This document shows positions 3,947 through 21,095 of a stretch of DNA of 36,682 nt, one piece after another. A program made the position numbers and the translations under genes. The DNA is taken from IMG/VR virus record IMGVR_UViG_2609459792_000013. The stretch is one strand, 5' to 3'. The notes under the pieces were generated by a model that was not told where the DNA came from, made no database searches, and saw only the letters and a program-made list of their open reading frames with translations. This DNA comes from a virus (lineage: Duplodnaviria > Heunggongvirae > Uroviricota > Caudoviricetes). Each line of letters starts with the position of its first letter. Positions within the stretch are counted from its first letter, which is position 1.

Positions 3947-4800
3947 GCACCATCCTGAAATGGGCGGGAAATAAAACTGCCATAATGTCCGAACTGAAAA
4001 AACATCTTCCTGCTGGCCCGCGACTGGTTGAACCTTTCGCGGGTTCCTGTGCTGTGATGATGGAGACGGATTATCCCAGCTATCTGGTTGCGGATATTAA
4101 TCCTGATTTAATCAACCTCTATAAAAAGGTTGCCGCTGATTGTGAATCGTTTATATCTCGCGCCAGAGTTTTATTTGAGATCGCAAACAGGGAGGTGGCT
4201 TATTACAACATAAGGCAGGAGTTTAATTACTCAACTGAAATTACTGATTTCATGAAAGCGGTATATTTCCTGTATCTCAATCGTCACGGTTACCGTGGTT
4301 TATGTCGCTATAACAAGAGCGGGCATTTCAACATTCCCTACGGTAATTATAAAAATCCGTATTTCCCTGAAAAAGAAATTCGCGCATTTGCAGAAAAGGC
4401 CCAGCGAGCAACGTTTATCTGCGCCAGCTTTGATGAAACGCTGGCGATGTTGAAGGCGGGGGATGTGGTGTATTGCGATCCGCCGTATGACGGTACGTTT
4501 TCCGGCTATCACACTGACGGCTTCACTGAAGATGACCAGTATCACCTGGCATCTGTTCTTGAACATCGGTCATCAGAAGGACATCCGGTCATTGTTTCTA
4601 ACAGTGACACATCCCTGATCCGTTCGCTGTATCGCAATTTTACTCACCACTACATCAAGGCAAAACGCAGCATCGGTGTGGCAGCTGGCGAGGGTAAATC
4701 AGCAACAGAAATCATTGCTGTTTCCGGGCCGCGCTGCTGGGTGGGATTTGATTATTCGCGTGGCGTGGATAGTTCTGCCGTGTACGGAGTACGTGCATGA
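3943..4800 (+). CDS. dam: DNA adenine methyltransferase (Dam-like, N6-adenine; probably GATC)
   Basis: ATG at 3943 ([11 protein letters not shown]). Motif [10 protein letters not shown] and motif IV DPPY; long collinear similarity to E. coli Dam as I recall it ([32 protein letters not shown]). Confidence 0.85.
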
Positions 4801-7211
4801 GTCATGCCGATATGAACAACTGCTGCGGCTTTAACGAAGCTGCCGCATCGTTCTCATGGAACAGCCCGAAAAAGGCCATTAACCCTTATCTGGACCCGGT
4901 GGAAGTTGCGCCGGTTTCTACGCTTTCAAACCTGATCACTCTGTATGCTGCCGATAACGAGCAGGAACAGCTGCGCCGTGAGGCGCTGAGTGATCAGGTC
5001 TGGGAGCGTTATTTCTTTAATGAATCCCGTGATCCTGTCCAGCGCGAAATGGAACAGGATAAGCTCATTAGTCGGGCAAAGCTGGCGCATGAGCAGCAGC
5101 GTTTTAATCCGGATATGGTCATTCTGGCGGACGTCAACGCCCAGCCTTCCCATATCAGCAAGCCGCTGATGCAACGTATTGAATACTTCAGCAGCCTGGG
5201 CAGGCCAAAGGCTTATTCCCGCTATTTACGTGAGACGATTAAGCCATGTTTGGAACGACTGGAGCATGTACGCGACAGTCAGCTATCTGCATCTTTTCGC
5301 TTTATGGCAAGCCATGAAGGGCTGGACGGCCTGCTGATCCTGCCTGAAATGAGTCAGGATCAGGTGAAACGCCTGTCCACCTTGGTAGCTGCGCATATGA
5401 GTATGTGCCTTGATGCCGCTTGTGGCGATTTGTATGCCACCGATGACGTTAAGCCAGAAGAAATCCGCAATACATGGGAAAGGGTGGCAGCGGAAACCCT
5501 GCGTCTGGATGTCATCCCGCCTGCGTTTGAGCAACTCCGTCGGAAAAGAAACCGCCGTAAACCCGTGCCCTATGAACTCATTCCGGGTTCGCTGGCGCGT
5601 ATGTTGTGCGCCGACTGGTGGTATCGGAAATTATGGAAGATGCGTTGCGAATGGCGGGAAGAGCAGTTGCGTGCAGTCTGCCTTGTCAGCAAAAAAGCAT
5701 CTCCTTATGTCAGCTATGAAGCCGTGATGCATAAACGTGAGCAGCGCCGTAAGTCGCTGGAGTTTTTCCGTTCTCATGAACTGGTGAACGAAGACGGCGA
5801 CACGCTGGACATGGAGGATGTGGTAAACGCCAGCAGCAGCAACCCAGCGCATCGCCGCAATGAGATGATGGCCTGTGTTAAAGGTCTGGAGCTTATCGCG
5901 GAAATGCGCGGTGACTGCGCCGTTTTCTACACCATCACCTGTCCGTCACGTTTCCATTCCACGCTAAACAACGGCAGGCCCAACCCAACCTGGACAAATG
6001 CGACGGTAAGACAAAGCAGTGATTATCTGGTCGGCATGTTTGCTGCATTTCGTAAGGCGATGCACAAAGCCGGATTGCGGTGGTATGGCGTGCGGGTGGC
6101 TGAGCCGCATCATGACGGTACAGTTCACTGGCACCTGTTGTGTTTTATGCGCAAAAAAGACCGCCGCACCATCACTGCATTACTGCGTAAGTTTGCCATC
6201 CGTGAAGACCGCGAGGAGCTGGGCAATAACACTGGGCCGCGCTTTAAGTCTGAGTTGATTAACCCGCGCAAAGGTACGCCAACAAGCTACATCGCGAAAT
6301 ACATCAGTAAGAACATTGACGGGCGTGGTCTGGCTGGCGAGATCAGCAAGGAAACGGGGAAATCCCTGCGTGATAATGCTGAATACGTTAATGCCTGGGC
6401 GTCTCTGCATCGTGTTCAGCAATTCCGCTTCTTTGGCATTCCGGGGCGTCAGGCTTACCGTGAACTGCGATTGCTGGCTGGTCAGGCGGCAAGGCAACAG
6501 GGGGACAAAAAAGCAGGTGCGCCGGTACTGGATAACCCGCGCCTTGATGCCATTCTGGCTGCTGCTGATGCTGGTTGTTTTGCCACCTACATCATGAAGC
6601 AGGGTGGCGTACTGGTTCCCCGCAAATATCACCTCATCAGAACTGCTTATGAAATCAACGAAGAGCCGACCGCCTATGGCGATCACGGCATTCGTATTTA
6701 TGGCATCTGGTCACCTATTGCAGAGGGCAAGATCTGCACTCATGCCGTGAAGTGGAAAATGGTTCGTAAGGCCGTTGACGTTCAGGAGGCGGCAGCCGAC
6801 CAGGGCGCTTGCGCCCCTTGGACTCGTGGCAATAACTGTCCCCTTGCTGAAAATTTGTACCAACAAGGGAAAGACAAATCAGCTGATGGAGATACCAGAA
6901 CGGATATCACCCGCATGGATGACAAGGAGTTGCACGATTACCTGCACAGTATGAGCAAAAAAGAGCGCCGGGAACTGGCAGCAAGGTTACGCCTGGTGAA
7001 ACCGAAACGGCGTAAAGACTACAAACAACGAATTACAGACCATCAGCGACTGCAGCTCGTGTATGAACTGAAGTCCAGGGGATTTGATGGCAGCGAGAAA
7101 GAGGTCGATTTACTGCTTCGCGGCGGCAGTATTCCGTCAGGAGCAGGCCTGCGTATCTTCTATCGGAACCAGCGTTTGCAGGAAGATGATAAGTGGCGAA
7201 ACCTGTATTAA
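4797..7211 (+). CDS. A: Rolling-circle replication initiator (P2 gpA-like)
   Basis: 804 aa; HUH-type motif [10 protein letters not shown] and Y-x3-Y active-site pair (YIAKY), as in P2 A. Start overlaps the Dam stop. Confidence 0.85.
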
Positions 7212-7598: not shown

Positions 7599-7722
7599 GG
7601 TCAACTAAGGATTGAAACAGAAAGCCCTTGAAAACAGTAGCAAGTTGCCTATTATCTACGCTGTATTTAATCGATGTCATTGGCTGTAATACCTTAAGTG
7701 ATATTGAAAGGCGGTGTGGGGA

Positions 7723-8883
7723 ATGGATCTGGCTAAAGTTGAAGAACGCGTCCGAAGAGTCATAGGGACAATGGAGTCTGCCGAGCTTGATGAATATTTT
7801 TGGGGTAAGCGCTCGGGTTTGGGAGACTCATTACCTCCGTATTATCTCGTTTATTTTCTTTTGGTAGATTTACTGAAATTTAAAAATCGTGGGGTTGATG
7901 AGAAGATTTCTTTTTCTATCCCAGTCCGGATTGATGGGACTGTCGTAATTATAGAACATCGTAAACTTGGTTTAGATATATTTATCAAGAGTGATGATGA
8001 TATAGAGCAAGCTAAAACTGTTTTGAGACATATTTGCGCAGGGGTTAAAGCTGCTACGAAATTTTTTGACTCGCTTGCAGACAATGCAGCAAAGACTTCA
8101 AATCTAAATGTTAATAACAATGCTAATTCTCTTTATGATAGGTTTTGCTATTTTTTAGAGCTATATAAACAGAAGCTTGATGAAGTTGCTGCTGGCCAAG
8201 AGTCTAAACTGGAAGTTGATAGTGAGTTTAAGTCTGATAATTTTTTCAGCCTGTTACAATCCACTTTTGAACAATCAAATAAGATAATTGAACTCCGAAG
8301 AGAGGCTATGTGGTTAGCAACGTCTGCAATTGAGTCATTTTTCAATTGGACCGAGCATGTTTTCATTCTTATTGCAATCTTGAAGGGTGAGATAAAAAAT
8401 GGGAATGATGTGGCTGATAAAGTTGGGAAAGAATGGGGGGAGAAATTCAAATTAGCCATTGATATTAACTCTTCCAGTCTAAAATCATTCTATGAACGTT
8501 TACTTATACTCAGAAAACAGGTGCGTAATTTTGTAGCCCATGGCGCCTTCGGTAAGGATGGGCAAGCATTGGAATTTCACTCAAGTGTAGGGGCTGTGCC
8601 ACTATTGCTGCCTCATCGAGAAAATAAAGAACGTTTCAAGTTTGGAAATGGTGTACATTTTTTGGCACCTGAAGCAATGCAATTAATTAACGATTTTCTT
8701 GAAAATTTGTGGCAGGGAGAACTGTCCCCAGCAAAAATTTATATTGAATCTGGATGTCCTTTAATACTATCTTACGTAACTAATGGAACCTATGCGGAGG
8801 CGATGAAATCAGAAAGGAATATGGACTTATTGGTTAATTACTTAACTCGTGAGATGGATAATGCCGCAAACATGGATTGGTAA
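7723..8883 (+). CDS. Cargo protein (387 aa), unknown function; candidate HEPN-like nuclease (R-N-x3-H motif)
   Basis: Long AT-rich ORF (ATG 7723; track start 7714 is a GTG) in the P2 tin/old slot. Motif LRKQVRNFVAHG matches the HEPN Rx4-6H signature; no Walker A motif seen. Confidence 0.75.
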   Translation: MDLAKVEERVRRVIGTMESAELDEYFWGKRSGLGDSLPPYYLVYFLLVDLLKFKNRGVDEKISFSIPVRIDGTVVIIEHRKLGLDIFIKSDDDIEQAKTVLRHICAGVKAATKFFDSLADNAAKTSNLNVNNNANSLYDRFCYFLELYKQKLDEVAAGQESKLEVDSEFKSDNFFSLLQSTFEQSNKIIELRREAMWLATSAIESFFNWTEHVFILIAILKGEIKNGNDVADKVGKEWGEKFKLAIDINSSSLKSFYERLLILRKQVRNFVAHGAFGKDGQALEFHSSVGAVPLLLPHRENKERFKFGNGVHFLAPEAMQLINDFLENLWQGELSPAKIYIESGCPLILSYVTNGTYAEAMKSERNMDLLVNYLTREMDNAANMDW

Positions 8884-9083: not shown

Positions 9084-9102
9084 GGCGTGGCGGGGATACG
9101 AG
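9084..9102 (+). other. Putative cos (cohesive-end) site
   Basis: GGCGTGGCGGGGATACGAG: the first 13 nt match the 186/P2 cos 19-mer as I recall it (GGCGTGGCGGGGAAAGCAT / GGCGAGGCGGGGAAAGCAC). Lies in a GC-rich non-coding spacer upstream of the Q-P packaging genes. Confidence 0.5.
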
Positions 9103-9208
9103 CGCGCGGGATGACATAACAGATTGAATTGAAAAATATTGACTAAATGTAAAATGCGAAGGATATTTAGCCCCTCTATGAAGTTTTAGATATGGAAAAT
9201 GATAGGTT

Positions 9209-9499
9209 ATGAAAACGATATATAGCTATGATTACCAATACTTGCCTAAAGGGTCCACAAGACCAATTGATGACGGAGATATAGTAGGCTGTTCGTCAGA
9301 AGAAAATCCTTTTCTTCTACTTCCCAATGTAGGTGATTTTGTCTCTATATGTAATGACAATAGTCGGTCTTCGTTTAGTGGTATTGTTAAAACTAGATAT
9401 TTCACTTATACGAGAATAAGTGAGGAGTGCGTACAATGTTCAATTAATATTGTAGTTGCAGAATCTGATGTAGATTGGGGTACTCTTATTAAAGAATAA
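9209..9499 (+). CDS. Cargo protein (96 aa), cytoplasmic, unknown function
   Basis: AT-rich ORF between cos and Q; candidate promoter upstream (TTGACT at 9140-9145); no recognisable motif. Confidence 0.6.
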   Translation: MKTIYSYDYQYLPKGSTRPIDDGDIVGCSSEENPFLLLPNVGDFVSICNDNSRSSFSGIVKTRYFTYTRISEECVQCSINIVVAESDVDWGTLIKE

Positions 9500-9554
9500 T
9501 ATGGGGCGTCTGCGTAAGTGGGCGCTATTAAAATAAAATGGAATCTTGTAATGT

Positions 9555-10241
9555 ATGGTTAAATTTAATAATAACTTTGATTTTCCATTGGTAACAATAC
9601 TGACGGTGTTGCTATTTATATTGGCATATTTTTTTAAACTTGGTGAGGCCGTTTATTTTGGTTATCCAGCAATACTTATATCATTAGATTTAACGAGTGT
9701 TGCGAATATTTCTTTAAAGCTTTTTTTCTATTTTGGTAGTATTGTTATAGGTGTTTTTAATTTTATTTTGAATGATGGTGCGATTAAACTTAATAAAATT
9801 AAGTATGTTCTTTGGATTTTTATTGCCATAACAATATTTTCAGTTTTTTTAAGTTTTAAGAGGGGGGAGAAAGACTTAGTTAACTATCTTAATGGTGGTC
9901 TTTTTGGTATTTGTTCATGGTTGGTGGTAATGTCGTTGTTCAAAACATTTGAACGAAGTGGTGATTTGATTAATATAGATTTCGTATATGCCATATTAAC
10001 GGTTTTCTTTATGTCAGTTACTAGTTTTCTTGGAGGGATTAATTATCATAATCAGTTTGCATCTGTTCTATGGAAAACCTTGGATGGAAAAATAGTAGTT
10101 GGAGAATATAACGGCAGTTTTGTTTTAAAGAAATGCGTAGATGGCAAAGGGGTTTTTAGCTTTAGAGAGGTAAATGGTAGCGAATTTGTTGAGGTTGTAA
10201 ATTATGTGGAAGGGAAGTTTAATCCAAGGTGCAATAGATAA
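9555..10241 (+). CDS. Cargo membrane protein (228 aa), about five TM helices plus a roughly 60-aa C-terminal soluble domain
   Basis: Hydrophobic stretches LVTILTVLLFILAYFF, ISLKLFFYFGSIVIGVFNFIL, YVLWIFIAITIFSVFLSF, LFGICSWLVVMSLF, FVYAILTVFFMSVTSFLGGI; very AT-rich; ends 25 bp before the convergent Q stop. Confidence 0.7.
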   Translation: MVKFNNNFDFPLVTILTVLLFILAYFFKLGEAVYFGYPAILISLDLTSVANISLKLFFYFGSIVIGVFNFILNDGAIKLNKIKYVLWIFIAITIFSVFLSFKRGEKDLVNYLNGGLFGICSWLVVMSLFKTFERSGDLINIDFVYAILTVFFMSVTSFLGGINYHNQFASVLWKTLDGKIVVGEYNGSFVLKKCVDGKGVFSFREVNGSEFVEVVNYVEGKFNPRCNR

Positions 10242-10266
10242 AGGTGCCAGGGCACCTTTCAAATAA

Positions 10267-11298
10267 TTATTCAAGTTTGTAGGCGTCAAAACTGATAACA
10301 GTTTTACCTAACCATATATTCAATTCTTCAAATCTTTTTTGCAATGATGTTAGTTCATTTCTTACAAAAACATTACTCGCCTTCTCCACATCCCCAAACC
10401 CTCCAACATTATTAGGCATAATCCCCATCATTTGCGGCGGCACGCGGTGCGCAGCCATCATGTCATCCCGGCTCACGTTCTTGATATTCAAAAATTCATC
10501 CTTTGCCGCGACTTCTGACAGAGGAATAATCTGAAGCCCGTCCTTTTTGCCGTTAGGCGAGTACATAAACAGGTTGCGGAAGTTGCCTGGACCTTTGGCG
10601 CTTTTCATCGCGTTGCGGAGGTTGTTCACATCTTCCTGGTTCTGCGCGGCGTCGGTCATATACATGATGAAGCCAGCATGACTGCCGTTAATGTAATACT
10701 TTCGACGGAACAGCGTGGCGGACTCATTGAGCAGGGCGGACGGAATGGCAGAAAGATAGCCGGGCAAGCCGTAGATCTCCTGGTTAATGTCCGGTTCCAT
10801 CAGATGAAAAATGCTGCCTTTCGTGAACTGATATGGCTGGGTTGTCATACCGTATTGCACAAACCAGTAGGTATCCAAGTCTAACCCGCGTCGGGTGTAT
10901 TTTGCCAGCGCAGGCTCAAGGGCGATAACTTCACCGAAGCGGTTCGTGCGTTTCTCCAAGTAGGCGTTACCAAAAACCAAATAGTCCTGCACAAAACGCG
11001 AAAAAGCCTGCTGGCTGAGCAGCGGGTGAGGGATGTAGGTGCTGGTCAAAATATTGCATTTCACCGCAATCGGTGAGCTGTGATGCACGGCGGCGCGGAA
11101 GGTTCGTGCCAGCCCGTCAAAGCTGACGGGCGGCTCATACCAGCGATCCATCTGTACGCATTCCACATAGTCCAGCAGTTCGCGGCGGTCCAGAACAGGA
11201 ACGGGATCACCGAAGCTGAATGCTTCGGCTGAAGTCTGGCTTTTATGCTGGTTCTGGTTCGTCGACGCAGCGCGGTTCTTCTTACTCTTTCCCATCAA
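10267..11298 (-). CDS. Q: Portal protein (P2 gpQ-like)
   Basis: 343 aa, recalled P2 Q similarity; operon with P on the minus strand, start overlapping the P stop. Confidence 0.85.
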   Translation of the reverse strand: MMGKSKKNRAASTNQNQHKSQTSAEAFSFGDPVPVLDRRELLDYVECVQMDRWYEPPVSFDGLARTFRAAVHHSSPIAVKCNILTSTYIPHPLLSQQAFSRFVQDYLVFGNAYLEKRTNRFGEVIALEPALAKYTRRGLDLDTYWFVQYGMTTQPYQFTKGSIFHLMEPDINQEIYGLPGYLSAIPSALLNESATLFRRKYYINGSHAGFIMYMTDAAQNQEDVNNLRNAMKSAKGPGNFRNLFMYSPNGKKDGLQIIPLSEVAAKDEFLNIKNVSRDDMMAAHRVPPQMMGIMPNNVGGFGDVEKASNVFVRNELTSLQKRFEELNIWLGKTVISFDAYKLE

Positions 11299-13061
11299 AA
11301 AATCTCCACAATATTGCTGGCATTGGCGGACTCGCCCTGCAGCGGTTCGTTAAACAGTGCGTGCATTGTTGCCCAGGCCAGATCGGCATGGCTGGCTTCT
11401 TCGCTGCGGCTGGCTTCATAGGTCGGGCGGTTGCCGCTGGCGGTGGTGGCGCGACGGATTGCCATGAATGACTGCGCAATGTCGGTGTGTCCGGCGTCAA
11501 ATTCCAGGCGGCGGTGACTGATAATGTCGTAGGCCTTGAGTACCAGGGCGTTTTTAACGTTGGGGTTGTAGACAAACTCCCGGACGGCAGGAAAAAACGC
11601 TTTCACGTTCTCGTAAACCCCGTGACCGACGCCGGTCGAGTCGATGCCGATATAGGTCACGTTATACTGTTCGGTCAGTTTTTTGATGGCGTCAGCCTGG
11701 GCGCGGAAGTCCATTCCGCGCCACTGGTGACGCTCAAGAATGCGGAACTTACCGCCCTGCACGGCTGGCGGTGCCACCACCACGCATCCGGCGCTGTCGC
11801 CGTTCTGCGTACCTTTTGCCGGGTCATAACCGATCCACACTTCGCGCCAGCCAAACGGGCGCAGGGCCAGTGCATGAAAGTCGGTCCAGACTTCCCAGCT
11901 GTCCACCATGCACGCCTGCAGCTCGCTGAGCGGGAACACGGACGCGAGATCGTCCACGAATTCACACATCAGCAGGTTCTGGTATTCGTCCGGGCTGTAT
12001 TCCATGCGCAACTGGTCAAGGTCGAACAGGTTACAGCCGCCGCGCACCGCATCTTCCACGGTGACTATCTGGCGGTATTGCCCGTCTGCACACAGCAGGC
12101 CTGGAGCCAGATTGCTGTGGGACAGGTCGATGTCCACCTTGTCGGCTTTATTGCGCCCACGGTTGAATAGCGCACCGGACCAGAACGGATAAGCACTGTG
12201 TGTCAGGCTGGATGGCGTGGAAAAATAGGTTTGTCGCCATTTTTTGTGAATAGCCATACCGGAAGCCACTTTGCGCAGCTCCTGGAATTTCGGGATCCAG
12301 AAATATTCATCCAGATACAGGTTGCCGTGGTAACTCTGGGCCGTGCGGGCATTGGTGCCGAGGAAATACAGTGTGGCCCCGTTGGGAAGCACCATCGGAT
12401 CGCCTTTCAGCTCCACTTCCACTTCTTTGGCGAAGTCGATGATGTACTGCTTAAAGACGTGGGCCTGTGCCTTGCTGGCGGAAAGGAAAATCTGGTTACG
12501 TCCGGTAAGCAGAGCGTCAATCAGGGCTTCACGGGCAAAGTAAAAGGTCGCGCCGATCTGGCGTGACTTCAGCAGGTTGCGGATGCGGTTGGTTTTTCCG
12601 GCTTCCCACCAGTGGCGCTGGTAGTTGAACATGGAGGAATGGAAGATTTCTTCCAGCTTCTCAATCTGCTCATCGGTGAAAACATTCTTTTCCGGCTGAC
12701 GGCGCGGGCCTTTGTTGCGGTTGGCGACGTTAGGGTTTAAGTCGGCTTCGTTGCCGCCATTGTTAAACTTGCCGATCCGCGCGTGGCGTTCCGACTGGCG
12801 CGCCAGCAGGTCAATCTCTTTGAAATCTTTCCCTTCTTTGTGCTCCTTCATAATGAGCTGGCAGTAGCGTGCGGCGGTGGTGAGCTGCATCTGATCCAGC
12901 GGCCCATAGTCACCCCACTTGTCGCGTTTCTTCCAGCTGTGAACGGTTGCAACTTTCTCGCCCAGCATTTCAGCAATGCGGGCTACACGGTATCCCTGAA
13001 AGTACAGCAGCATGGCCTGCCGACGGGGATCGAGATCTGCGGGTGTCAGTGTGGTGTTCAT
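11295..13061 (-). CDS. P: Terminase large (ATPase) subunit (P2 gpP-like)
   Basis: 588 aa in the position and orientation of P2 P; an alternative start at 13013 is possible. Confidence 0.85.
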   Translation of the reverse strand: MNTTLTPADLDPRRQAMLLYFQGYRVARIAEMLGEKVATVHSWKKRDKWGDYGPLDQMQLTTAARYCQLIMKEHKEGKDFKEIDLLARQSERHARIGKFNNGGNEADLNPNVANRNKGPRRQPEKNVFTDEQIEKLEEIFHSSMFNYQRHWWEAGKTNRIRNLLKSRQIGATFYFAREALIDALLTGRNQIFLSASKAQAHVFKQYIIDFAKEVEVELKGDPMVLPNGATLYFLGTNARTAQSYHGNLYLDEYFWIPKFQELRKVASGMAIHKKWRQTYFSTPSSLTHSAYPFWSGALFNRGRNKADKVDIDLSHSNLAPGLLCADGQYRQIVTVEDAVRGGCNLFDLDQLRMEYSPDEYQNLLMCEFVDDLASVFPLSELQACMVDSWEVWTDFHALALRPFGWREVWIGYDPAKGTQNGDSAGCVVVAPPAVQGGKFRILERHQWRGMDFRAQADAIKKLTEQYNVTYIGIDSTGVGHGVYENVKAFFPAVREFVYNPNVKNALVLKAYDIISHRRLEFDAGHTDIAQSFMAIRRATTASGNRPTYEASRSEEASHADLAWATMHALFNEPLQGESANASNIVEIF

Positions 13062-18656: not shown

Positions 18657-20408
18657 CTATTGGTTGAATATGAAGCTGATAATATTTTCAGGAGTGAGCT
18701 CTATGTTTTTTTTATTAAGTTTTTGAATGTACATTTTATATTTCATTTCAACGTTTCGGAAGCCTTGCGCAACAGAAAGTATTTCTACAGGATGAGATGA
18801 AAGTTTTATTAAGGAGTTAATGACTGTATCTAGGTAGATGTGAGCATGTTCAACTAAAACATTTGTTTTTGATGGGGTTTTTCCAGTGTGAACTATCAAG
18901 TTTCTAGTTCTATATATTCTCCTAATTTGCCAGTTGATTCTTTCTGCATGATTTTTAAGTGCCTGATACATAGTATCAGTTGAGGAAATTAAATTGCTAA
19001 TATATTCAAATCTCTCTTTCAATAACGGAAATTGTGATAGTTCTATCTTAAACTGATTGATGCTAGGGGCATGTTCTTGCGAAGCAACAAGAATTACAAA
19101 TGATTTGGCTGCATCGCTATCTCCAATTAGTCTTAGAAGTGACATGGTTCGAGGATGATTCCATCGTTGTAAGTCTTTTATAAGATTCCTTACTAGGTCT
19201 TCAATATAATTCAGGTTTAAAAATGGTGTTAATGAATTAACGATATGTTCTATCGTGGATTGTTCTTCTTTTTTTGATTCGTCGGGGATGAGTGATTCAA
19301 TAGCAATCCATAAATTTAAAAGCTGATTTTCTACAGCATTTGTCTGTAGTGCCATTGAATGTAATTGTACACTTCTTATGAATTTATTGAAAGAATCCTT
19401 GCGCATTCTGAAATTATTCATGAATTGTTCGAGTCTTCTGCTTGCGTGTTCCTGAACCAGATCCTTGCAGCGGTGCATTGGGTTTATGCTGCTTCTTATA
19501 TTGATTTTTTCACCATTTTCACTAACTACAATGTTCTCTGCAGACCATGATGCTTCTTGCTTATGATGATAGAGAGAAAGCAAAGTTGATGCGAGCTTTA
19601 AGTTTCTTTCAGCTACCCTTCTAGCCGTGAATGGATCAAGTGCTTTAACATGCTTAACTAAAATAGTTCGTTGTTCATGATTATCGAAGAAATCTGTTTC
19701 ATTAATATTTTCGGGGGTTTCAAGAACAACCTCAATTTCTAATTGTGATAAGCATGGAGTAATATAACTAAAAGATTTGTCAGCATTGAAATAAACTGAA
19801 TATTCTTGTGTCTCTGAGGGGATGTTCTCTAGGAATGTAATAATCTCTTCATTTGAACTGATCTCTCGTTCTCTTTGGAAGAAATGTTTTTTTAGACTTT
19901 CCATCAAATATTCTTGACTTAATCCTTTTGATATTAGATGGGTAATCAACAGTCTTGTAAACTTTCGAATTTTATTTGGGTTGTATTCTGAAGTTATTGT
20001 AGAGCAAAGTTCACTGATGAGTTTGCTTTCATAATTACCAACATTAAGTTGAACTCTCAGTAATTCAAGAGTTATTTTTAGATTTTTATTTCCTAACTGA
20101 TTGTTTTGGAGTTGATCTAAAAATGAACCTAAAGGGTTTTTTAGAAGACTGATTGCGATGTCATCATTCTTAATATTTTTAGTTAATTCGTCAATGACGT
20201 GGGATATATGTGCGGGGCTTATGTTGCCTTTTTCTATATCATCGATTGTTGATATTGCTTCTATACATAAACTTGGAGTGTTCATTATAGAAGGTTTATA
20301 TGTACTATGGGTGTAATCAAAGAGAAGTTCCTCCATTAACTCGGTGAAATAAATAAGCGCAGTGCATTGTTCAATATGATTCCAGTTGTGTAGTCTTCTA
20401 AATTTCAT
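18657..20408 (-). CDS. Cargo protein (583 aa) antisense to the late operon in the S-V moron slot; candidate HEPN-like abortive-infection protein
   Basis: Very AT-rich ORF; ATG at 20408 (MKFRRLHNWNH...). The track TTG start at 20528 would overlap gpV and is rejected. C-terminal motif IRRIYRTRNLIVHTGK matches R-N-x3-H-x-G; no Walker A motif. Confidence 0.8.
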   Translation of the reverse strand: MKFRRLHNWNHIEQCTALIYFTELMEELLFDYTHSTYKPSIMNTPSLCIEAISTIDDIEKGNISPAHISHVIDELTKNIKNDDIAISLLKNPLGSFLDQLQNNQLGNKNLKITLELLRVQLNVGNYESKLISELCSTITSEYNPNKIRKFTRLLITHLISKGLSQEYLMESLKKHFFQREREISSNEEIITFLENIPSETQEYSVYFNADKSFSYITPCLSQLEIEVVLETPENINETDFFDNHEQRTILVKHVKALDPFTARRVAERNLKLASTLLSLYHHKQEASWSAENIVVSENGEKINIRSSINPMHRCKDLVQEHASRRLEQFMNNFRMRKDSFNKFIRSVQLHSMALQTNAVENQLLNLWIAIESLIPDESKKEEQSTIEHIVNSLTPFLNLNYIEDLVRNLIKDLQRWNHPRTMSLLRLIGDSDAAKSFVILVASQEHAPSINQFKIELSQFPLLKERFEYISNLISSTDTMYQALKNHAERINWQIRRIYRTRNLIVHTGKTPSKTNVLVEHAHIYLDTVINSLIKLSSHPVEILSVAQGFRNVEMKYKMYIQKLNKKNIELTPENIISFIFNQ

Positions 20409-20452
20409 ATTAATACCTTGTTTTGTGAAGCTTGAATTTACCTTTAGCGCAT

Positions 20453-20470
20453 TGTTTGTTGCTTCATACA
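20453..20470. promoter_or_regulatory. TGT-N12-ACA dyad between the cargo gene and V (late-promoter activator site candidate)
   Basis: TGTTTGTTGCTTCATACA, with flanking extended symmetry TGTTTG...CAAACA. Centre is 55.5 bp from the V ATG (20517) and 53.5 bp from the cargo ATG (20408). Confidence 0.45.
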
Positions 20471-20516
20471 AACATGGTTTGTTTGTGATCTCAAGTGTTT
20501 GATTAAGAATTTGAGA

Positions 20517-21095
20517 ATGAACGTACAACTCACGGAAATCATGCGCCTTATCACCAATCTGATCCGCACAGGGGTAGTCACCGAAGTGGACCGGGAAAAC
20601 TGGCTTTGCAGGGTGAAAACGGGCGAGCTTGAAACCAACTGGATCAGCTGGCTGACGCTACGTGCCGGAAATGCCCGGACATGGTGGCGACCATCGGAAG
20701 GTGAGCAGGTGGTGCTGCTGAGTCTGGGCGGCAATCTGGAGACCGCCTTTGCGCTGCCCGCTGTCTATTCGAATCAGTTCGCACCACCGTCGACGTCGGC
20801 GGACGCCTGCGTGACAGAACATCCTGACGGTGGCTGGTTTGAATACGAACCCGCCACCGGGCGCTGGTATGTCAGGGGCATCAAATCAATGGTCATTGAG
20901 GCCGCTGACAACATCACCCTGAAAACCAGTGAGTTTGTACTGGAGGCTGACCGCACGCGCATTAACAGTGAAGTGGTGATCAATGGTGGAGTTACCCAGG
21001 GCGGCGGAGCGATGAGTTCTAACGGGATCGTGGTTGATGCGCATCAGCATACTGGCGTCCTGAAAGGCGGCGATACAACCGGAGGCCCGGTATGA
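20517..21095 (+). CDS. V: Baseplate spike protein (gpV-like)
   Basis: N-terminus MNVQLTEIMRLITNLIRTGVVTEVD resembles recalled P2 V; an alternative start at 20541 is possible. Confidence 0.8.
   Translation: MNVQLTEIMRLITNLIRTGVVTEVDRENWLCRVKTGELETNWISWLTLRAGNARTWWRPSEGEQVVLLSLGGNLETAFALPAVYSNQFAPPSTSADACVTEHPDGGWFEYEPATGRWYVRGIKSMVIEAADNITLKTSEFVLEADRTRINSEVVINGGVTQGGGAMSSNGIVVDAHQHTGVLKGGDTTGGPV

What the first reader, a model, noticed from the sequence alone, without database searches (positions are those of the whole stretch)
9140..10241. Two-gene AT-rich module (96-aa protein plus 228-aa five-helix membrane protein) between cos and portal gene Q
In P2 as I recall it there is essentially nothing between cos and the Q stop. 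Here about 1.1 kb of very AT-rich DNA is inserted with its own candidate promoter (TTGACT at 9140-9145). A small soluble protein followed by a polytopic membrane protein with a short C-terminal soluble domain is the typical shape of membrane-disrupting abortive-infection, superinfection-exclusion or toxin-antitoxin-like pairs. Neither protein resembles anything I recognise.
Basis: partly seen in the sequence, partly recalled or inferred. Interest (0 to 1): 0.8.

Follow-up and report, generated by a model that had tools for sequence, protein, structure and literature searches.

The report
Two stacked accessory genes beside P2 cos
Two real but uncharacterised genes, one for a small soluble protein and one for a five-helix membrane protein, sit in the known variable "defence hotspot" of a P2-like prophage; they are independent cassettes stacked together, not an obligate toxin-antitoxin-type pair.

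Summary
A P2-type cos site (9084-9102) is followed by 1.16 kb of 32% GC DNA. It encodes a 96-aa acidic all-beta protein (9209-9499) and a 228-aa five-helix membrane protein with a C-terminal beta domain (9555-10241), just before portal gene Q. Both genes are under purifying selection.

The "pair" reading does not hold. In related P2-like prophages the small gene occurs alone between cos and Q. It also occurs followed by an unrelated 298-aa soluble protein. The membrane-protein family occurs next to Q without the small gene. The small family also lies in non-phage settings across Proteobacteria and cyanobacteria.

The small gene has a comparatively conserved sigma-70-like promoter and its own hairpin. 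The membrane gene lies behind that hairpin and has a second hairpin before Q.

Best reading: two independent morons in the cos-Q arm of the known gpA-gpQ hotspot. The positive-inside bias and a conserved cysteine pair put the membrane protein's conserved parts in the periplasm. That favours superinfection exclusion at the envelope, but this is untested.

Neither protein matches any known defence, exclusion, lysis or structural family. Interest is moderate to low: new cargo of a known kind.

The parts
9084..9102 (.). cos cohesive-end core (GGCGTGGCGGGGATACGAG). It marks the left boundary of the cos-Q arm.
   Evidence: Matches 14 of 19 bases of the annotated P2 cosL. An identical or 1-nt variant core, with a conserved ~50-bp left flank, is present in all related prophages examined. 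Homology ends right after GAGCGCGCG.
9139..9167 (+). Sigma-70-like promoter of the small gene: TTGACT (9139-9144), 17-nt spacer, GATATT (9162-9167).
   Evidence: Consensus scan gives 9 of 12 matches, which is not above chance on its own. Both hexamers and the 17-nt spacing are kept in window, L005, L063 and L002 although the spacer sequences differ. Function is inferred; transcription was not shown.
9209..9499 (+). small96: a 96-aa acidic (pI 4.4) all-beta protein with an invariant PNVGD(F/Y)V loop and a conserved C-terminal WGxLIKE tail.
9505..9526 (+). GC-rich hairpin directly after the small gene. It is terminator-like, but in this window three of its pairs are G-U and it lacks a U-run, so it probably only attenuates.
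   Evidence: -13.5 kcal/mol, z = -3.35. A hairpin at the same place follows the small gene in every arrangement: alone, with the membrane gene, or with the 298-aa gene.
9555..10241 (+). TM228: a 228-aa inner-membrane protein with five predicted helices, a conserved GEAxYFGYP...LDL motif after helix 1, and a C-terminal beta domain with a conserved cysteine pair (C194, C226).
   Evidence: ORF. PHROG 35408, unknown function, E=2.7e-152. Only 28 representative clusters among 1.84 billion proteins. Family alignment. Hydropathy, K/R bias and cysteine positions. AlphaFold2 pLDDT 55, with 5 helices plus a beta domain. dN/dS 0.13.
10240..10259 (.). Hairpin (AAGGUGCC-AGGG-GGCACCUU type) between the converging membrane gene and Q. 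It is a probable bidirectional terminator, the counterpart of P2 tQ.
   Evidence: -10.3 kcal/mol on the + strand and -10.9 on the - strand, z about -3. Analogous hairpins precede the Q stop in relatives. P2 has tQ annotated at the same relative place.
10267..11298 (-). Portal gene Q. It is the right boundary of the slot and not part of the cargo.
   Evidence: Pfam Phage_portal E=1.8e-16. 95-96% DNA identity to Klebsiella and E. coli P2-like phages, starting 43-46 bp into the query that begins at 10267, that is about 20 bp inside the 3' end of Q; the cargo itself has no match there.
7714..8883 (+). Context only: a 389-aa AT-rich ORF in the other arm of the hotspot (gpA-cos, the P2 old/tin slot), with an RNFVAH HEPN-type motif.
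   Evidence: ORF. Sub-threshold Csx1_HEPN hit at E=0.038. Motif at 8524-8541. No PADLOC hit.

Best explanation
The 1.16-kb insert is two separately mobile accessory cassettes (morons). They are stacked in the cos-to-Q arm of the known gpA-gpQ variable hotspot of a 186/P2-like prophage.

Cassette 1 is the small gene with its own sigma-70-like promoter and a downstream hairpin. It encodes a cytoplasmic, acidic, all-beta protein of a broadly distributed family. That family works without any fixed partner, and its target is unknown.

Cassette 2 is the membrane gene plus a second hairpin, placed between cassette 1's hairpin and Q. No promoter-like site of its own was found. It is therefore probably transcribed at a low level by read-through from the small gene's promoter across the weakened hairpin.

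The membrane protein most likely inserts with its N-terminus in the cytoplasm and its C-terminus outside. This places its two conserved elements at the periplasmic face: the GEAxYFGYP loop and the C-terminal beta domain, which may be disulfide-bonded. From there it would act on its own as a lysogenic-conversion factor. The most probable role is superinfection exclusion, interfering with genome entry of incoming phages at the inner membrane.

Shown: gene reality, boundaries, separability of the two genes, hairpins, promoter conservation, topology bias.
Inferred: transcription pattern, periplasmic disulfide, anti-phage role.
For: Separability:
- The small gene is alone between cos and Q in L065-L070.
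- The small gene is followed by an unrelated 298-aa protein in L001-4, L010 and L064.
- That 298-aa family occurs in 12 viral contigs without the small gene.
- The membrane family lies next to Q without the small gene in L081 and L085-L089. In L081 and L086 it is the only gene between cos and Q.
- A distant membrane-family member is a lone opposite-strand gene beside int/xis in a lambdoid prophage.
- The small family occurs in 40 non-P2 genome loci with no conserved neighbour, including a housekeeping locus in Rhizomicrobium.

Different histories: small proteins of L005 and L063 are 86% identical while their membrane proteins are 53% identical. The small protein that accompanies the 298-aa partner (L002) is 83% identical to both.

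Cassette anatomy: the TTGACT-17-GATATT element is conserved in four lineages with divergent spacers. A hairpin follows the small gene in all arrangements, and a second hairpin precedes Q. GC is 32.5% against about 53% for the backbone.

Topology: about 22 of 28 family members give 5 helices. K/R residues are concentrated on the N-terminal side loops in nearly all of them. A cysteine pair about 32 residues apart in the C-terminal domain is kept in 25 of 28 members.

Hotspot: the gpA-gpQ interval is a documented anti-phage hotspot (PMC9122126, PMC13586616). Relatives carry 3HP and PD-T4-10 in the gpA-cos arm. One carries a PDC-S31-like protein and a RES protein in the cos-Q arm next to a membrane-family gene.
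Against: - No experiment and no homology links either protein to phage exclusion.
- The small gene and the membrane gene stay adjacent with a constant 53-56-bp spacer in four lineages down to 52% membrane-protein identity. This could reflect functional coupling rather than mere promoter sharing.
- The window's own membrane protein shows no K/R bias (5 versus 5). The topology call rests on the family.
- The structure model of the membrane protein is poor, pLDDT 55.
- Promoter and terminator calls are sequence-based only.
- The absence of a promoter in front of the membrane gene rests on a simple consensus scan.
- Chromosomal, syntenic copies of the small gene in Rhizomicrobium suggest a cellular rather than phage-related role for that family.
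Confidence: 0.45

Rival explanations
1. The two genes form a co-dependent two-component system of the toxin-antitoxin or abortive-infection type. The small soluble protein neutralises or senses, and the membrane protein is a membrane-disrupting toxin or effector released on infection.
For: The two genes are adjacent, on the same strand, with a constant 53-56-bp spacer in four diverged lineages. They are probably co-transcribed from one promoter. In known systems, membrane proteins are commonly suicide effectors (PMC9122126).
Against: Each gene occurs without the other at the very same slot in related prophages, and in unrelated contexts. The small gene is followed by its own hairpin. The two genes have discordant divergence. 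The conserved parts of the membrane protein appear to face the periplasm, away from a cytoplasmic partner. There is no PADLOC match.
Confidence: 0.13
2. This is a modular defence system. The small protein is a conserved sensor or adaptor that works with interchangeable effectors, either the 228-aa membrane protein or the 298-aa Cys/His protein. Small-only loci would then be decayed systems.
For: The same small gene (83-86% identity) sits in front of two unrelated downstream genes at the same site. Exchange of effectors behind a constant sensor is a known pattern in defence systems (general knowledge).
Against: The membrane family and the 298-aa family are both found many times without the small gene. 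The small gene is intact and under purifying selection where it stands alone. It is a syntenic chromosomal gene in Rhizomicrobium among housekeeping genes. No neighbour is conserved across 40 loci.
Confidence: 0.1
3. The membrane protein is a host-physiology or envelope conversion factor unrelated to phage defence. One possibility is a chaperone or adaptor for pilin-like or other membrane proteins, in the manner of the TfpY/FimB pilin accessory proteins.
For: Two family members carry a precomputed faint hit to Pfam PF27470 'TfpB'. TfpY-like proteins are of similar size (235-245 aa), with a short cytoplasmic N-terminus, N-terminal membrane helices and a periplasmic C-terminal domain (PMC11841053).
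Against: The hit is 'faint' and could not be reproduced, because the family is absent from the local Pfam copy. What PF27470 covers could not be established. TfpY-like proteins have 3 helices, not 5, and are encoded beside pilin genes; no pilin-like gene was seen among the Pfam-annotated or otherwise identified neighbours in the loci examined. All named family members are 'hypothetical protein' from Enterobacterales. The gene recurs at prophage cargo slots.
Confidence: 0.12
4. The genes serve the phage's own lytic cycle, for example in lysis (a holin-like protein), packaging at cos, or morphogenesis.
For: The genes lie close to cos and to the portal and terminase genes. There is a very weak BlyA-holin hit (E=0.044, 13.8 bits against a cutoff of 52.85).
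Against: P2 and many close relatives with 95% identical portal and terminase genes lack both genes. Presence is variable and base composition is foreign. The lysis cassette lies elsewhere. The small family occurs in non-phage chromosomal loci.
Confidence: 0.03

Closest known systems
Cargo of the P2 gpA-gpQ (cos-proximal) anti-phage hotspot: old and tin in P2, plus 3HP, PD-T4-10, PARIS-like and other systems (Rousset et al. 2022, PMC9122126; NAR 2026, PMC13586616)
   Same: Same genomic interval in a P2-like prophage. AT-rich and variable between otherwise syntenic relatives. Flanked by recognised defence genes in relatives.
   Different: It lies on the Q side of cos, which is essentially empty in P2, rather than in the old/tin position. 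Neither protein matches any PADLOC model. No anti-phage activity has been shown. There is no DNA match in 5,426 complete E. coli genomes.
Classical morons (promoter-gene-terminator units inserted between conserved phage genes; Hendrix-type definition, from general knowledge)
   Same: Own promoter-like element, own hairpin terminator, deviant GC content, and presence or absence between the same conserved neighbours.
   Different: Here two units are stacked, and the second appears to lack its own promoter and to depend on read-through. Expression in lysogens has not been shown.
Single-gene inner-membrane superinfection-exclusion proteins (T4 Imm and Sp, P22 SieA, HK97 gp15; recalled from the literature and not compared directly)
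   Same: Prophage- or phage-encoded small polytopic inner-membrane protein, able to stand alone, with conserved parts predicted at the periplasmic face.
   Different: There is no sequence similarity. The only PHROG matched is an unknown-function family. It has five helices plus a cysteine-pair beta domain, an architecture not known from those proteins. Function is untested.
RexA/RexB-type and other soluble-sensor plus membrane-effector abortive-infection pairs
   Same: A soluble protein gene followed by a polytopic membrane protein gene in a prophage.
   Different: The two genes are not co-dependent in distribution. There is no sequence match. The small protein is much smaller than RexA.
TfpY/TfpZ/FimB pilin accessory proteins (PMC11841053)
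   Same: About 230-245 aa, cytoplasmic N-terminus, N-terminal membrane helices and a periplasmic C-terminal globular domain. Two relatives carry a faint precomputed PF27470 'TfpB' hit.
   Different: Five helices rather than three. Not next to a pilin gene. The hit is not significant and not reproducible here.

Membership tests
P2 gpA-gpQ hotspot cargo | Located between replication gene A and portal gene Q of a P2-like prophage, next to cos | tested here: met
   gpA at 4797-7211, cos at 9084-9102, Q at 10267-11298.
P2 gpA-gpQ hotspot cargo | Content varies between relatives that share the flanking genes | tested here: met
   Contents seen across relatives: nothing (P2), small gene alone, small + membrane gene, small + 298-aa gene, membrane gene alone, and membrane gene with other genes.
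P2 gpA-gpQ hotspot cargo | Confers anti-phage protection | not testable with these tools
   Needs plating assays.
Moron | Own promoter and terminator, deviant composition, insertion between conserved genes | tested here: met
   Conserved TTGACT-17-GATATT element, hairpins, GC 32.5% against 50-57%. Met by sequence criteria only; transcription was not measured.
Toxin-antitoxin or two-gene abortive-infection pair | The two genes co-occur obligatorily | tested here: not met
   Each gene is found without the other at the same slot and elsewhere.
Toxin-antitoxin or two-gene abortive-infection pair | The membrane protein is toxic and the small protein rescues | not testable with these tools
   Needs expression experiments.
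Known defence systems (PADLOC-DB 2.0) | HMM match to a component of a known or candidate system | tested here: not met
   0 families at E<=1 for both proteins.
Known superinfection-exclusion, lysis or structural phage families (PHROGs, Pfam, NCBIfam) | Sequence match to an annotated family | tested here: not met
   Only PHROG 12676 and PHROG 35408, both of unknown function. No Pfam hit. NCBIfam gave only a sub-threshold BlyA holin hit at E=0.044.
TfpY/FimB/TfpB pilin accessory proteins | Significant match to the family profile | tested here: inconclusive
   There is a precomputed 'faint' PF27470 hit on two relatives but none listed for the representative closest to the window protein (P0001, 98% identical). 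The model is absent from the local Pfam copy. All named relatives are 'hypothetical'.
TfpY/FimB/TfpB pilin accessory proteins | Three membrane helices and a gene next to a type IV pilin gene | tested here: not met
   Five helices. Neighbours are phage genes.
Cradle-loop barrel / GD-box proteins (double-psi beta barrel) for the small protein | Fold match to a double-psi or related barrel | tested here: inconclusive

The most novel reading that the evidence does not exclude
The membrane protein would found a new family of single-gene, periplasm-facing inner-membrane superinfection-exclusion proteins used by P2-like and lambdoid prophages of Enterobacterales. The small protein would be a new, very widely distributed portable factor (alpha-, beta- and gamma-proteobacteria and cyanobacteria), for example an immune or anti-immune modulator that binds a conserved target through its invariant PNVGD loop and LIKE tail. 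Its promoter-terminator cassette next to cos would serve as a docking point behind which further cargo is stacked and expressed by read-through.
Probability: 0.25. Interest if true: 0.55.

Novelty: new member of a known kind. Interest (0 to 1): 0.33.

Why it matters
The gpA-gpQ hotspot of P2-like phages is a proven source of new anti-phage systems. About a fifth of P2 elements carry only unknown genes there (PMC13586616).

This case shows three things. First, the Q side of cos, which is empty in P2 itself, is a sub-hotspot where self-contained cassettes are mixed and matched. Second, it supplies two uncharacterised protein families, absent from Pfam, that could be tested cheaply. Third, it is a caution: adjacency in one genome can look like a two-gene system when wider comparison shows independent units.

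If the membrane protein proves to be an exclusion factor, it would add a new architecture to a small set of known entry blockers. If the small protein has a conserved cellular target, its breadth across phyla would make it of wider interest.

Tried and rejected
Family libraries. Pfam, NCBIfam and PADLOC gave no significant family for either protein. PHROGs gave only unknown-function families.

DNA and protein searches. No match in 50,697 phage records. No match in 5,426 complete E. coli genomes by megablast or blastn.

Structure.
- Foldseek against viral models found only uncharacterised small proteins.
- The membrane-protein model was too poor (pLDDT 55) and its fold search gave nothing.
- The afdb50 library was unavailable.
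- PDB sequence and profile searches gave nothing for the membrane family or the 298-aa protein and only insignificant hits (E >= 0.43) for the 389-aa protein. The small family gave only weak GD-box hits to designed DPBB proteins.

TfpB lead. In the literature the name refers to a PilB-like ATPase in Acinetobacter. The TfpY/FimB family has a similar overall shape. I could not establish what PF27470 covers, so I kept this only as a low-probability rival.

Holin idea. Rejected, because the score is far below the cutoff and the context is wrong.

Conserved partner of the small gene. All-against-all comparison of neighbours in 40 loci found none beyond genus-level synteny.

Failed scan. A locus scan with the full 28-member membrane-family alignment failed for lack of a conserved stretch. 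Sub-alignments worked.

Promoter. The consensus scan alone is not above chance, so I relied on the comparative alignment.

Full report
**What is there.** The window is a 186/P2-like prophage. It carries an integrase and CI repressor at the left end, gpA at 4797-7211, portal Q at 10267-11298 and terminase P at 11295-13061. Both ORFs of the finding exist as described: 9209-9499 (96 aa) and 9555-10241 (228 aa), both on the + strand and converging on Q. The segment from 9103 to 10266 is 32.5% GC, against 50-57% for the neighbouring phage genes. At that composition an open frame of 228 codons has a chance probability of about 2.5e-9. Both proteins have homologues at 50-99% identity. They evolve under purifying selection: dN/dS is 0.09 and 0.13 against the Enterobacter hormaechei copy, at dS of about 1.1. 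They are real genes.

**cos and the P2 comparison.** The annotated P2 genome starts with cosL, GGCGAGGCGGGGAAAGCAC. Its Q stop codon follows only 167 bp later, with just the tQ terminator in between. The window has GGCGTGGCGGGGATACGAG at 9084-9102 (14 of 19 bases). This core and about 50 bp to its left are nearly identical in all related prophages I fetched. Similarity ends immediately after GAGCGCGCG.

**The slot is part of a known hotspot.** Rousset et al. 2022 defined the cos-proximal gpA-gpQ interval of P2-like phages as a hotspot of anti-phage systems. A 2026 survey confirms this and notes that 19% of P2 elements carry only unknown genes there (PMC9122126 and PMC13586616). In relatives of this prophage, the gpA-to-cos arm holds recognised systems: 3HP in L066 and PD-T4-10 in L005. 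In the window that arm holds a 389-aa AT-rich ORF with an RNFVAH HEPN-type motif.

**The two genes are not an obligate pair.** This is the main result.
- The small gene stands alone between cos and Q in six IMG/VR P2-like prophages, L065-L070. It ends 46-55 bp before the Q stop.
- In Klebsiella pneumoniae and Nissabacter prophages the small gene is followed by an unrelated 298-aa soluble Cys/His-rich protein. That protein family itself occurs in 12 viral contigs without the small gene.
- Divergent members of the membrane family (27-39% identity) sit next to Q in six further P2-like loci without the small gene; L087 and L088 look like the same prophage type. In L081 and L086 the membrane gene is the only gene between cos and Q. 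In L085, L087/88 and L089 it is accompanied by other cargo: a Cys-rich protein, a 158-aa ORF of unknown family plus a DUF1493 protein, or DUF2971/PDC-S31-like plus RES.
- A distant member is a lone, opposite-strand gene beside int/xis in a lambdoid prophage.
- The small family is far wider than the word-indexed search suggested. It turned up in 40 loci in Halomonas, Pseudomonas, Vibrio, Photobacterium, Brevundimonas, Synechococcus, Rhizomicrobium and others. None has P2 genes, the membrane protein or the 298-aa protein nearby, and no neighbour is conserved across taxa.
- In about 18 Rhizomicrobium MAGs the small gene is a syntenic chromosomal gene, set among map, a CinA-like gene, a TPR protein gene, a SpoU methylase gene and icd.
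- Divergence is discordant. The small proteins of L005 and L063 are 86% identical while their membrane proteins are 53% identical. The small protein travelling with the 298-aa partner is 83% identical to both.

**Cassette anatomy.** Upstream of the small gene, TTGACT (9139-9144) and GATATT (9162-9167) are spaced by 17 nt. On its own this is no better than chance in AT-rich DNA. However, both hexamers and the spacing are retained in window, L005, L063 and L002 while the spacer and flanks differ. That is the footprint expected of a working sigma-70 promoter.

Directly after the small gene's stop codon, a GC-rich hairpin is present in every arrangement. In small-only loci it is strong and followed by T-runs, and it doubles as the terminator facing Q. 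In the window (9505-9526, -13.5 kcal/mol) three of its pairs are G-U and no U-run follows.

The membrane gene starts 28 nt after this hairpin. The scan found no promoter-like site in front of it. A second hairpin at 10240-10259 separates it from Q. I infer a promoter, small gene, attenuating hairpin, membrane gene, terminator layout, in which the membrane gene is expressed by read-through. This would also explain why new cargo lands behind the small gene.

**The membrane protein.** The family is rare: 28 representative clusters at E<=1e-3 among 1.84 billion proteins. Every named member is a "hypothetical protein" from Enterobacterales, including Enterobacter, Pantoea, Serratia and Yersinia. 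Conserved features are helix 1, a GE(A/S)xYFGYP...LDL motif, three to four further poorly conserved helices, and a C-terminal beta domain with two cysteines about 32 residues apart. That cysteine pair is kept in 25 of the 28 aligned family members.

A crude hydropathy analysis gives five helices in about 22 of 28 members. Lysine and arginine are concentrated in the N-terminal tail and loops 2 and 4 in nearly all of them, though not in the window protein itself, where the count is 5 versus 5. By the positive-inside rule (established knowledge), the N-terminus is cytoplasmic, and the conserved loop and the cysteine-pair domain are periplasmic. A periplasmic location is also where a conserved disulfide makes sense.

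The AlphaFold2 model agrees on 5 helices plus a beta domain but is of low confidence (pLDDT 55), and its fold search gave nothing. Two relatives carry a faint precomputed hit to PF27470 "TfpB". I could not reproduce or interpret this hit. TfpY/FimB pilin accessory proteins share the general shape but have three helices and lie next to pilin genes.

**Mechanism.** Several features fit a lysogenic-conversion protein acting at the envelope: the gene is stand-alone, prophage-borne and laterally acquired, it recurs at cargo slots, and its conserved parts face the periplasm. The most probable role is superinfection exclusion at the genome-entry step. This fits better than a suicide effector waiting for a cytoplasmic signal. 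It remains an inference, since nothing here tests activity. I put the independence of the two cassettes at about 0.8 and the exclusion role at about 0.4, giving a combined confidence of about 0.45 for the overall statement.

**Novelty and score.** The kind of feature, accessory cargo in the P2 cos-proximal hotspot, is known. The two protein families are uncharacterised, absent from Pfam and PADLOC, and absent from 50,697 phage records and 5,426 E. coli genomes. The verdict is a new member of a known kind, of moderate to low interest. Its main value is as two cheap experimental candidates and as an example of a false two-gene system.

Noticed in passing
window 7714-8883 (+): A 389-aa AT-rich ORF (38% GC) in the gpA-cos arm, the P2 old/tin slot. 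It has an RNFVAH (Rx4H, HEPN-type) motif at nt 8524-8541 and a sub-threshold Csx1_HEPN hit (E=0.038). It has no PADLOC or NCBIfam match and no significant PDB match. It is a candidate single-gene HEPN RNase defence protein.
   Followed up: partly
window 18657-20528 (-): A second AT-rich island (33% GC) lies between the tail gene S-like ORF and the V-like ORF, the P2 orf30 slot. It encodes a 623-aa protein that matches the PADLOC ApeA model (E=2.9e-12) and has an RNLIVH motif at residue 542.
   Followed up: partly
L001-L004 6398-7294; L010 5413-6309; L094-L106: A 298-aa Cys/His-rich soluble protein (CYLCGKKF...CLHWLLRRC, PHYHFQ) takes the place of the membrane gene behind the small gene in Klebsiella and Nissabacter prophages. 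It also occurs in 12 IMG/VR contigs without the small gene. It has no Pfam, NCBIfam, PADLOC or PDB match.
   Followed up: partly
L027, L030-L043, L046, L051, L052 (Rhizomicrobium and related MAGs), gene at about 4001-4297: The small-protein family is a syntenic chromosomal gene set among housekeeping genes (M24 aminopeptidase, CinA-like/MoCF, TPR, SpoU methylase, isocitrate dehydrogenase). A tandem duplicate occurs in a Rhodoferax MAG (L025, 4001-4288 and 4462-4752).
   Followed up: partly
L066 834-3584 (-); L005 3802-5405 (+); L089 2300-4956 (+): Related prophages carry recognised systems in the same hotspot: 3HP (Hp1-3) and PD-T4-10 in the gpA-cos arm. One has a DUF2971/PDC-S31-like protein and a RES-domain protein flanking a membrane-family gene in the cos-Q arm.
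   Followed up: yes
L060/L061 and L077/L078 (IMGVR_UViG_2541047905_000004, 48 kb): The 100%-identical module, with gpA, Q and P, appears twice in inverted orientation on one viral contig. This is either an assembly artefact or two copies of the prophage.
   Followed up: no
window 9505-9526 and the equivalent position in L002, L005, L008, L063, L065-L070: The hairpin after the small gene keeps a CCTGC...GCAGG core across lineages whose flanks have diverged. Cargo always sits just downstream of it, so it may mark the preferred insertion or recombination point.
   Followed up: partly
L053 4250-5924 (CP019275.1, E. coli p13P477T-2): A circular 37-kb P2-like element recorded as a plasmid, with 96% identical portal and terminase genes. 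It carries a different, frameshifted ~558-aa hypothetical gene between the DinI gene and Q.
   Followed up: no
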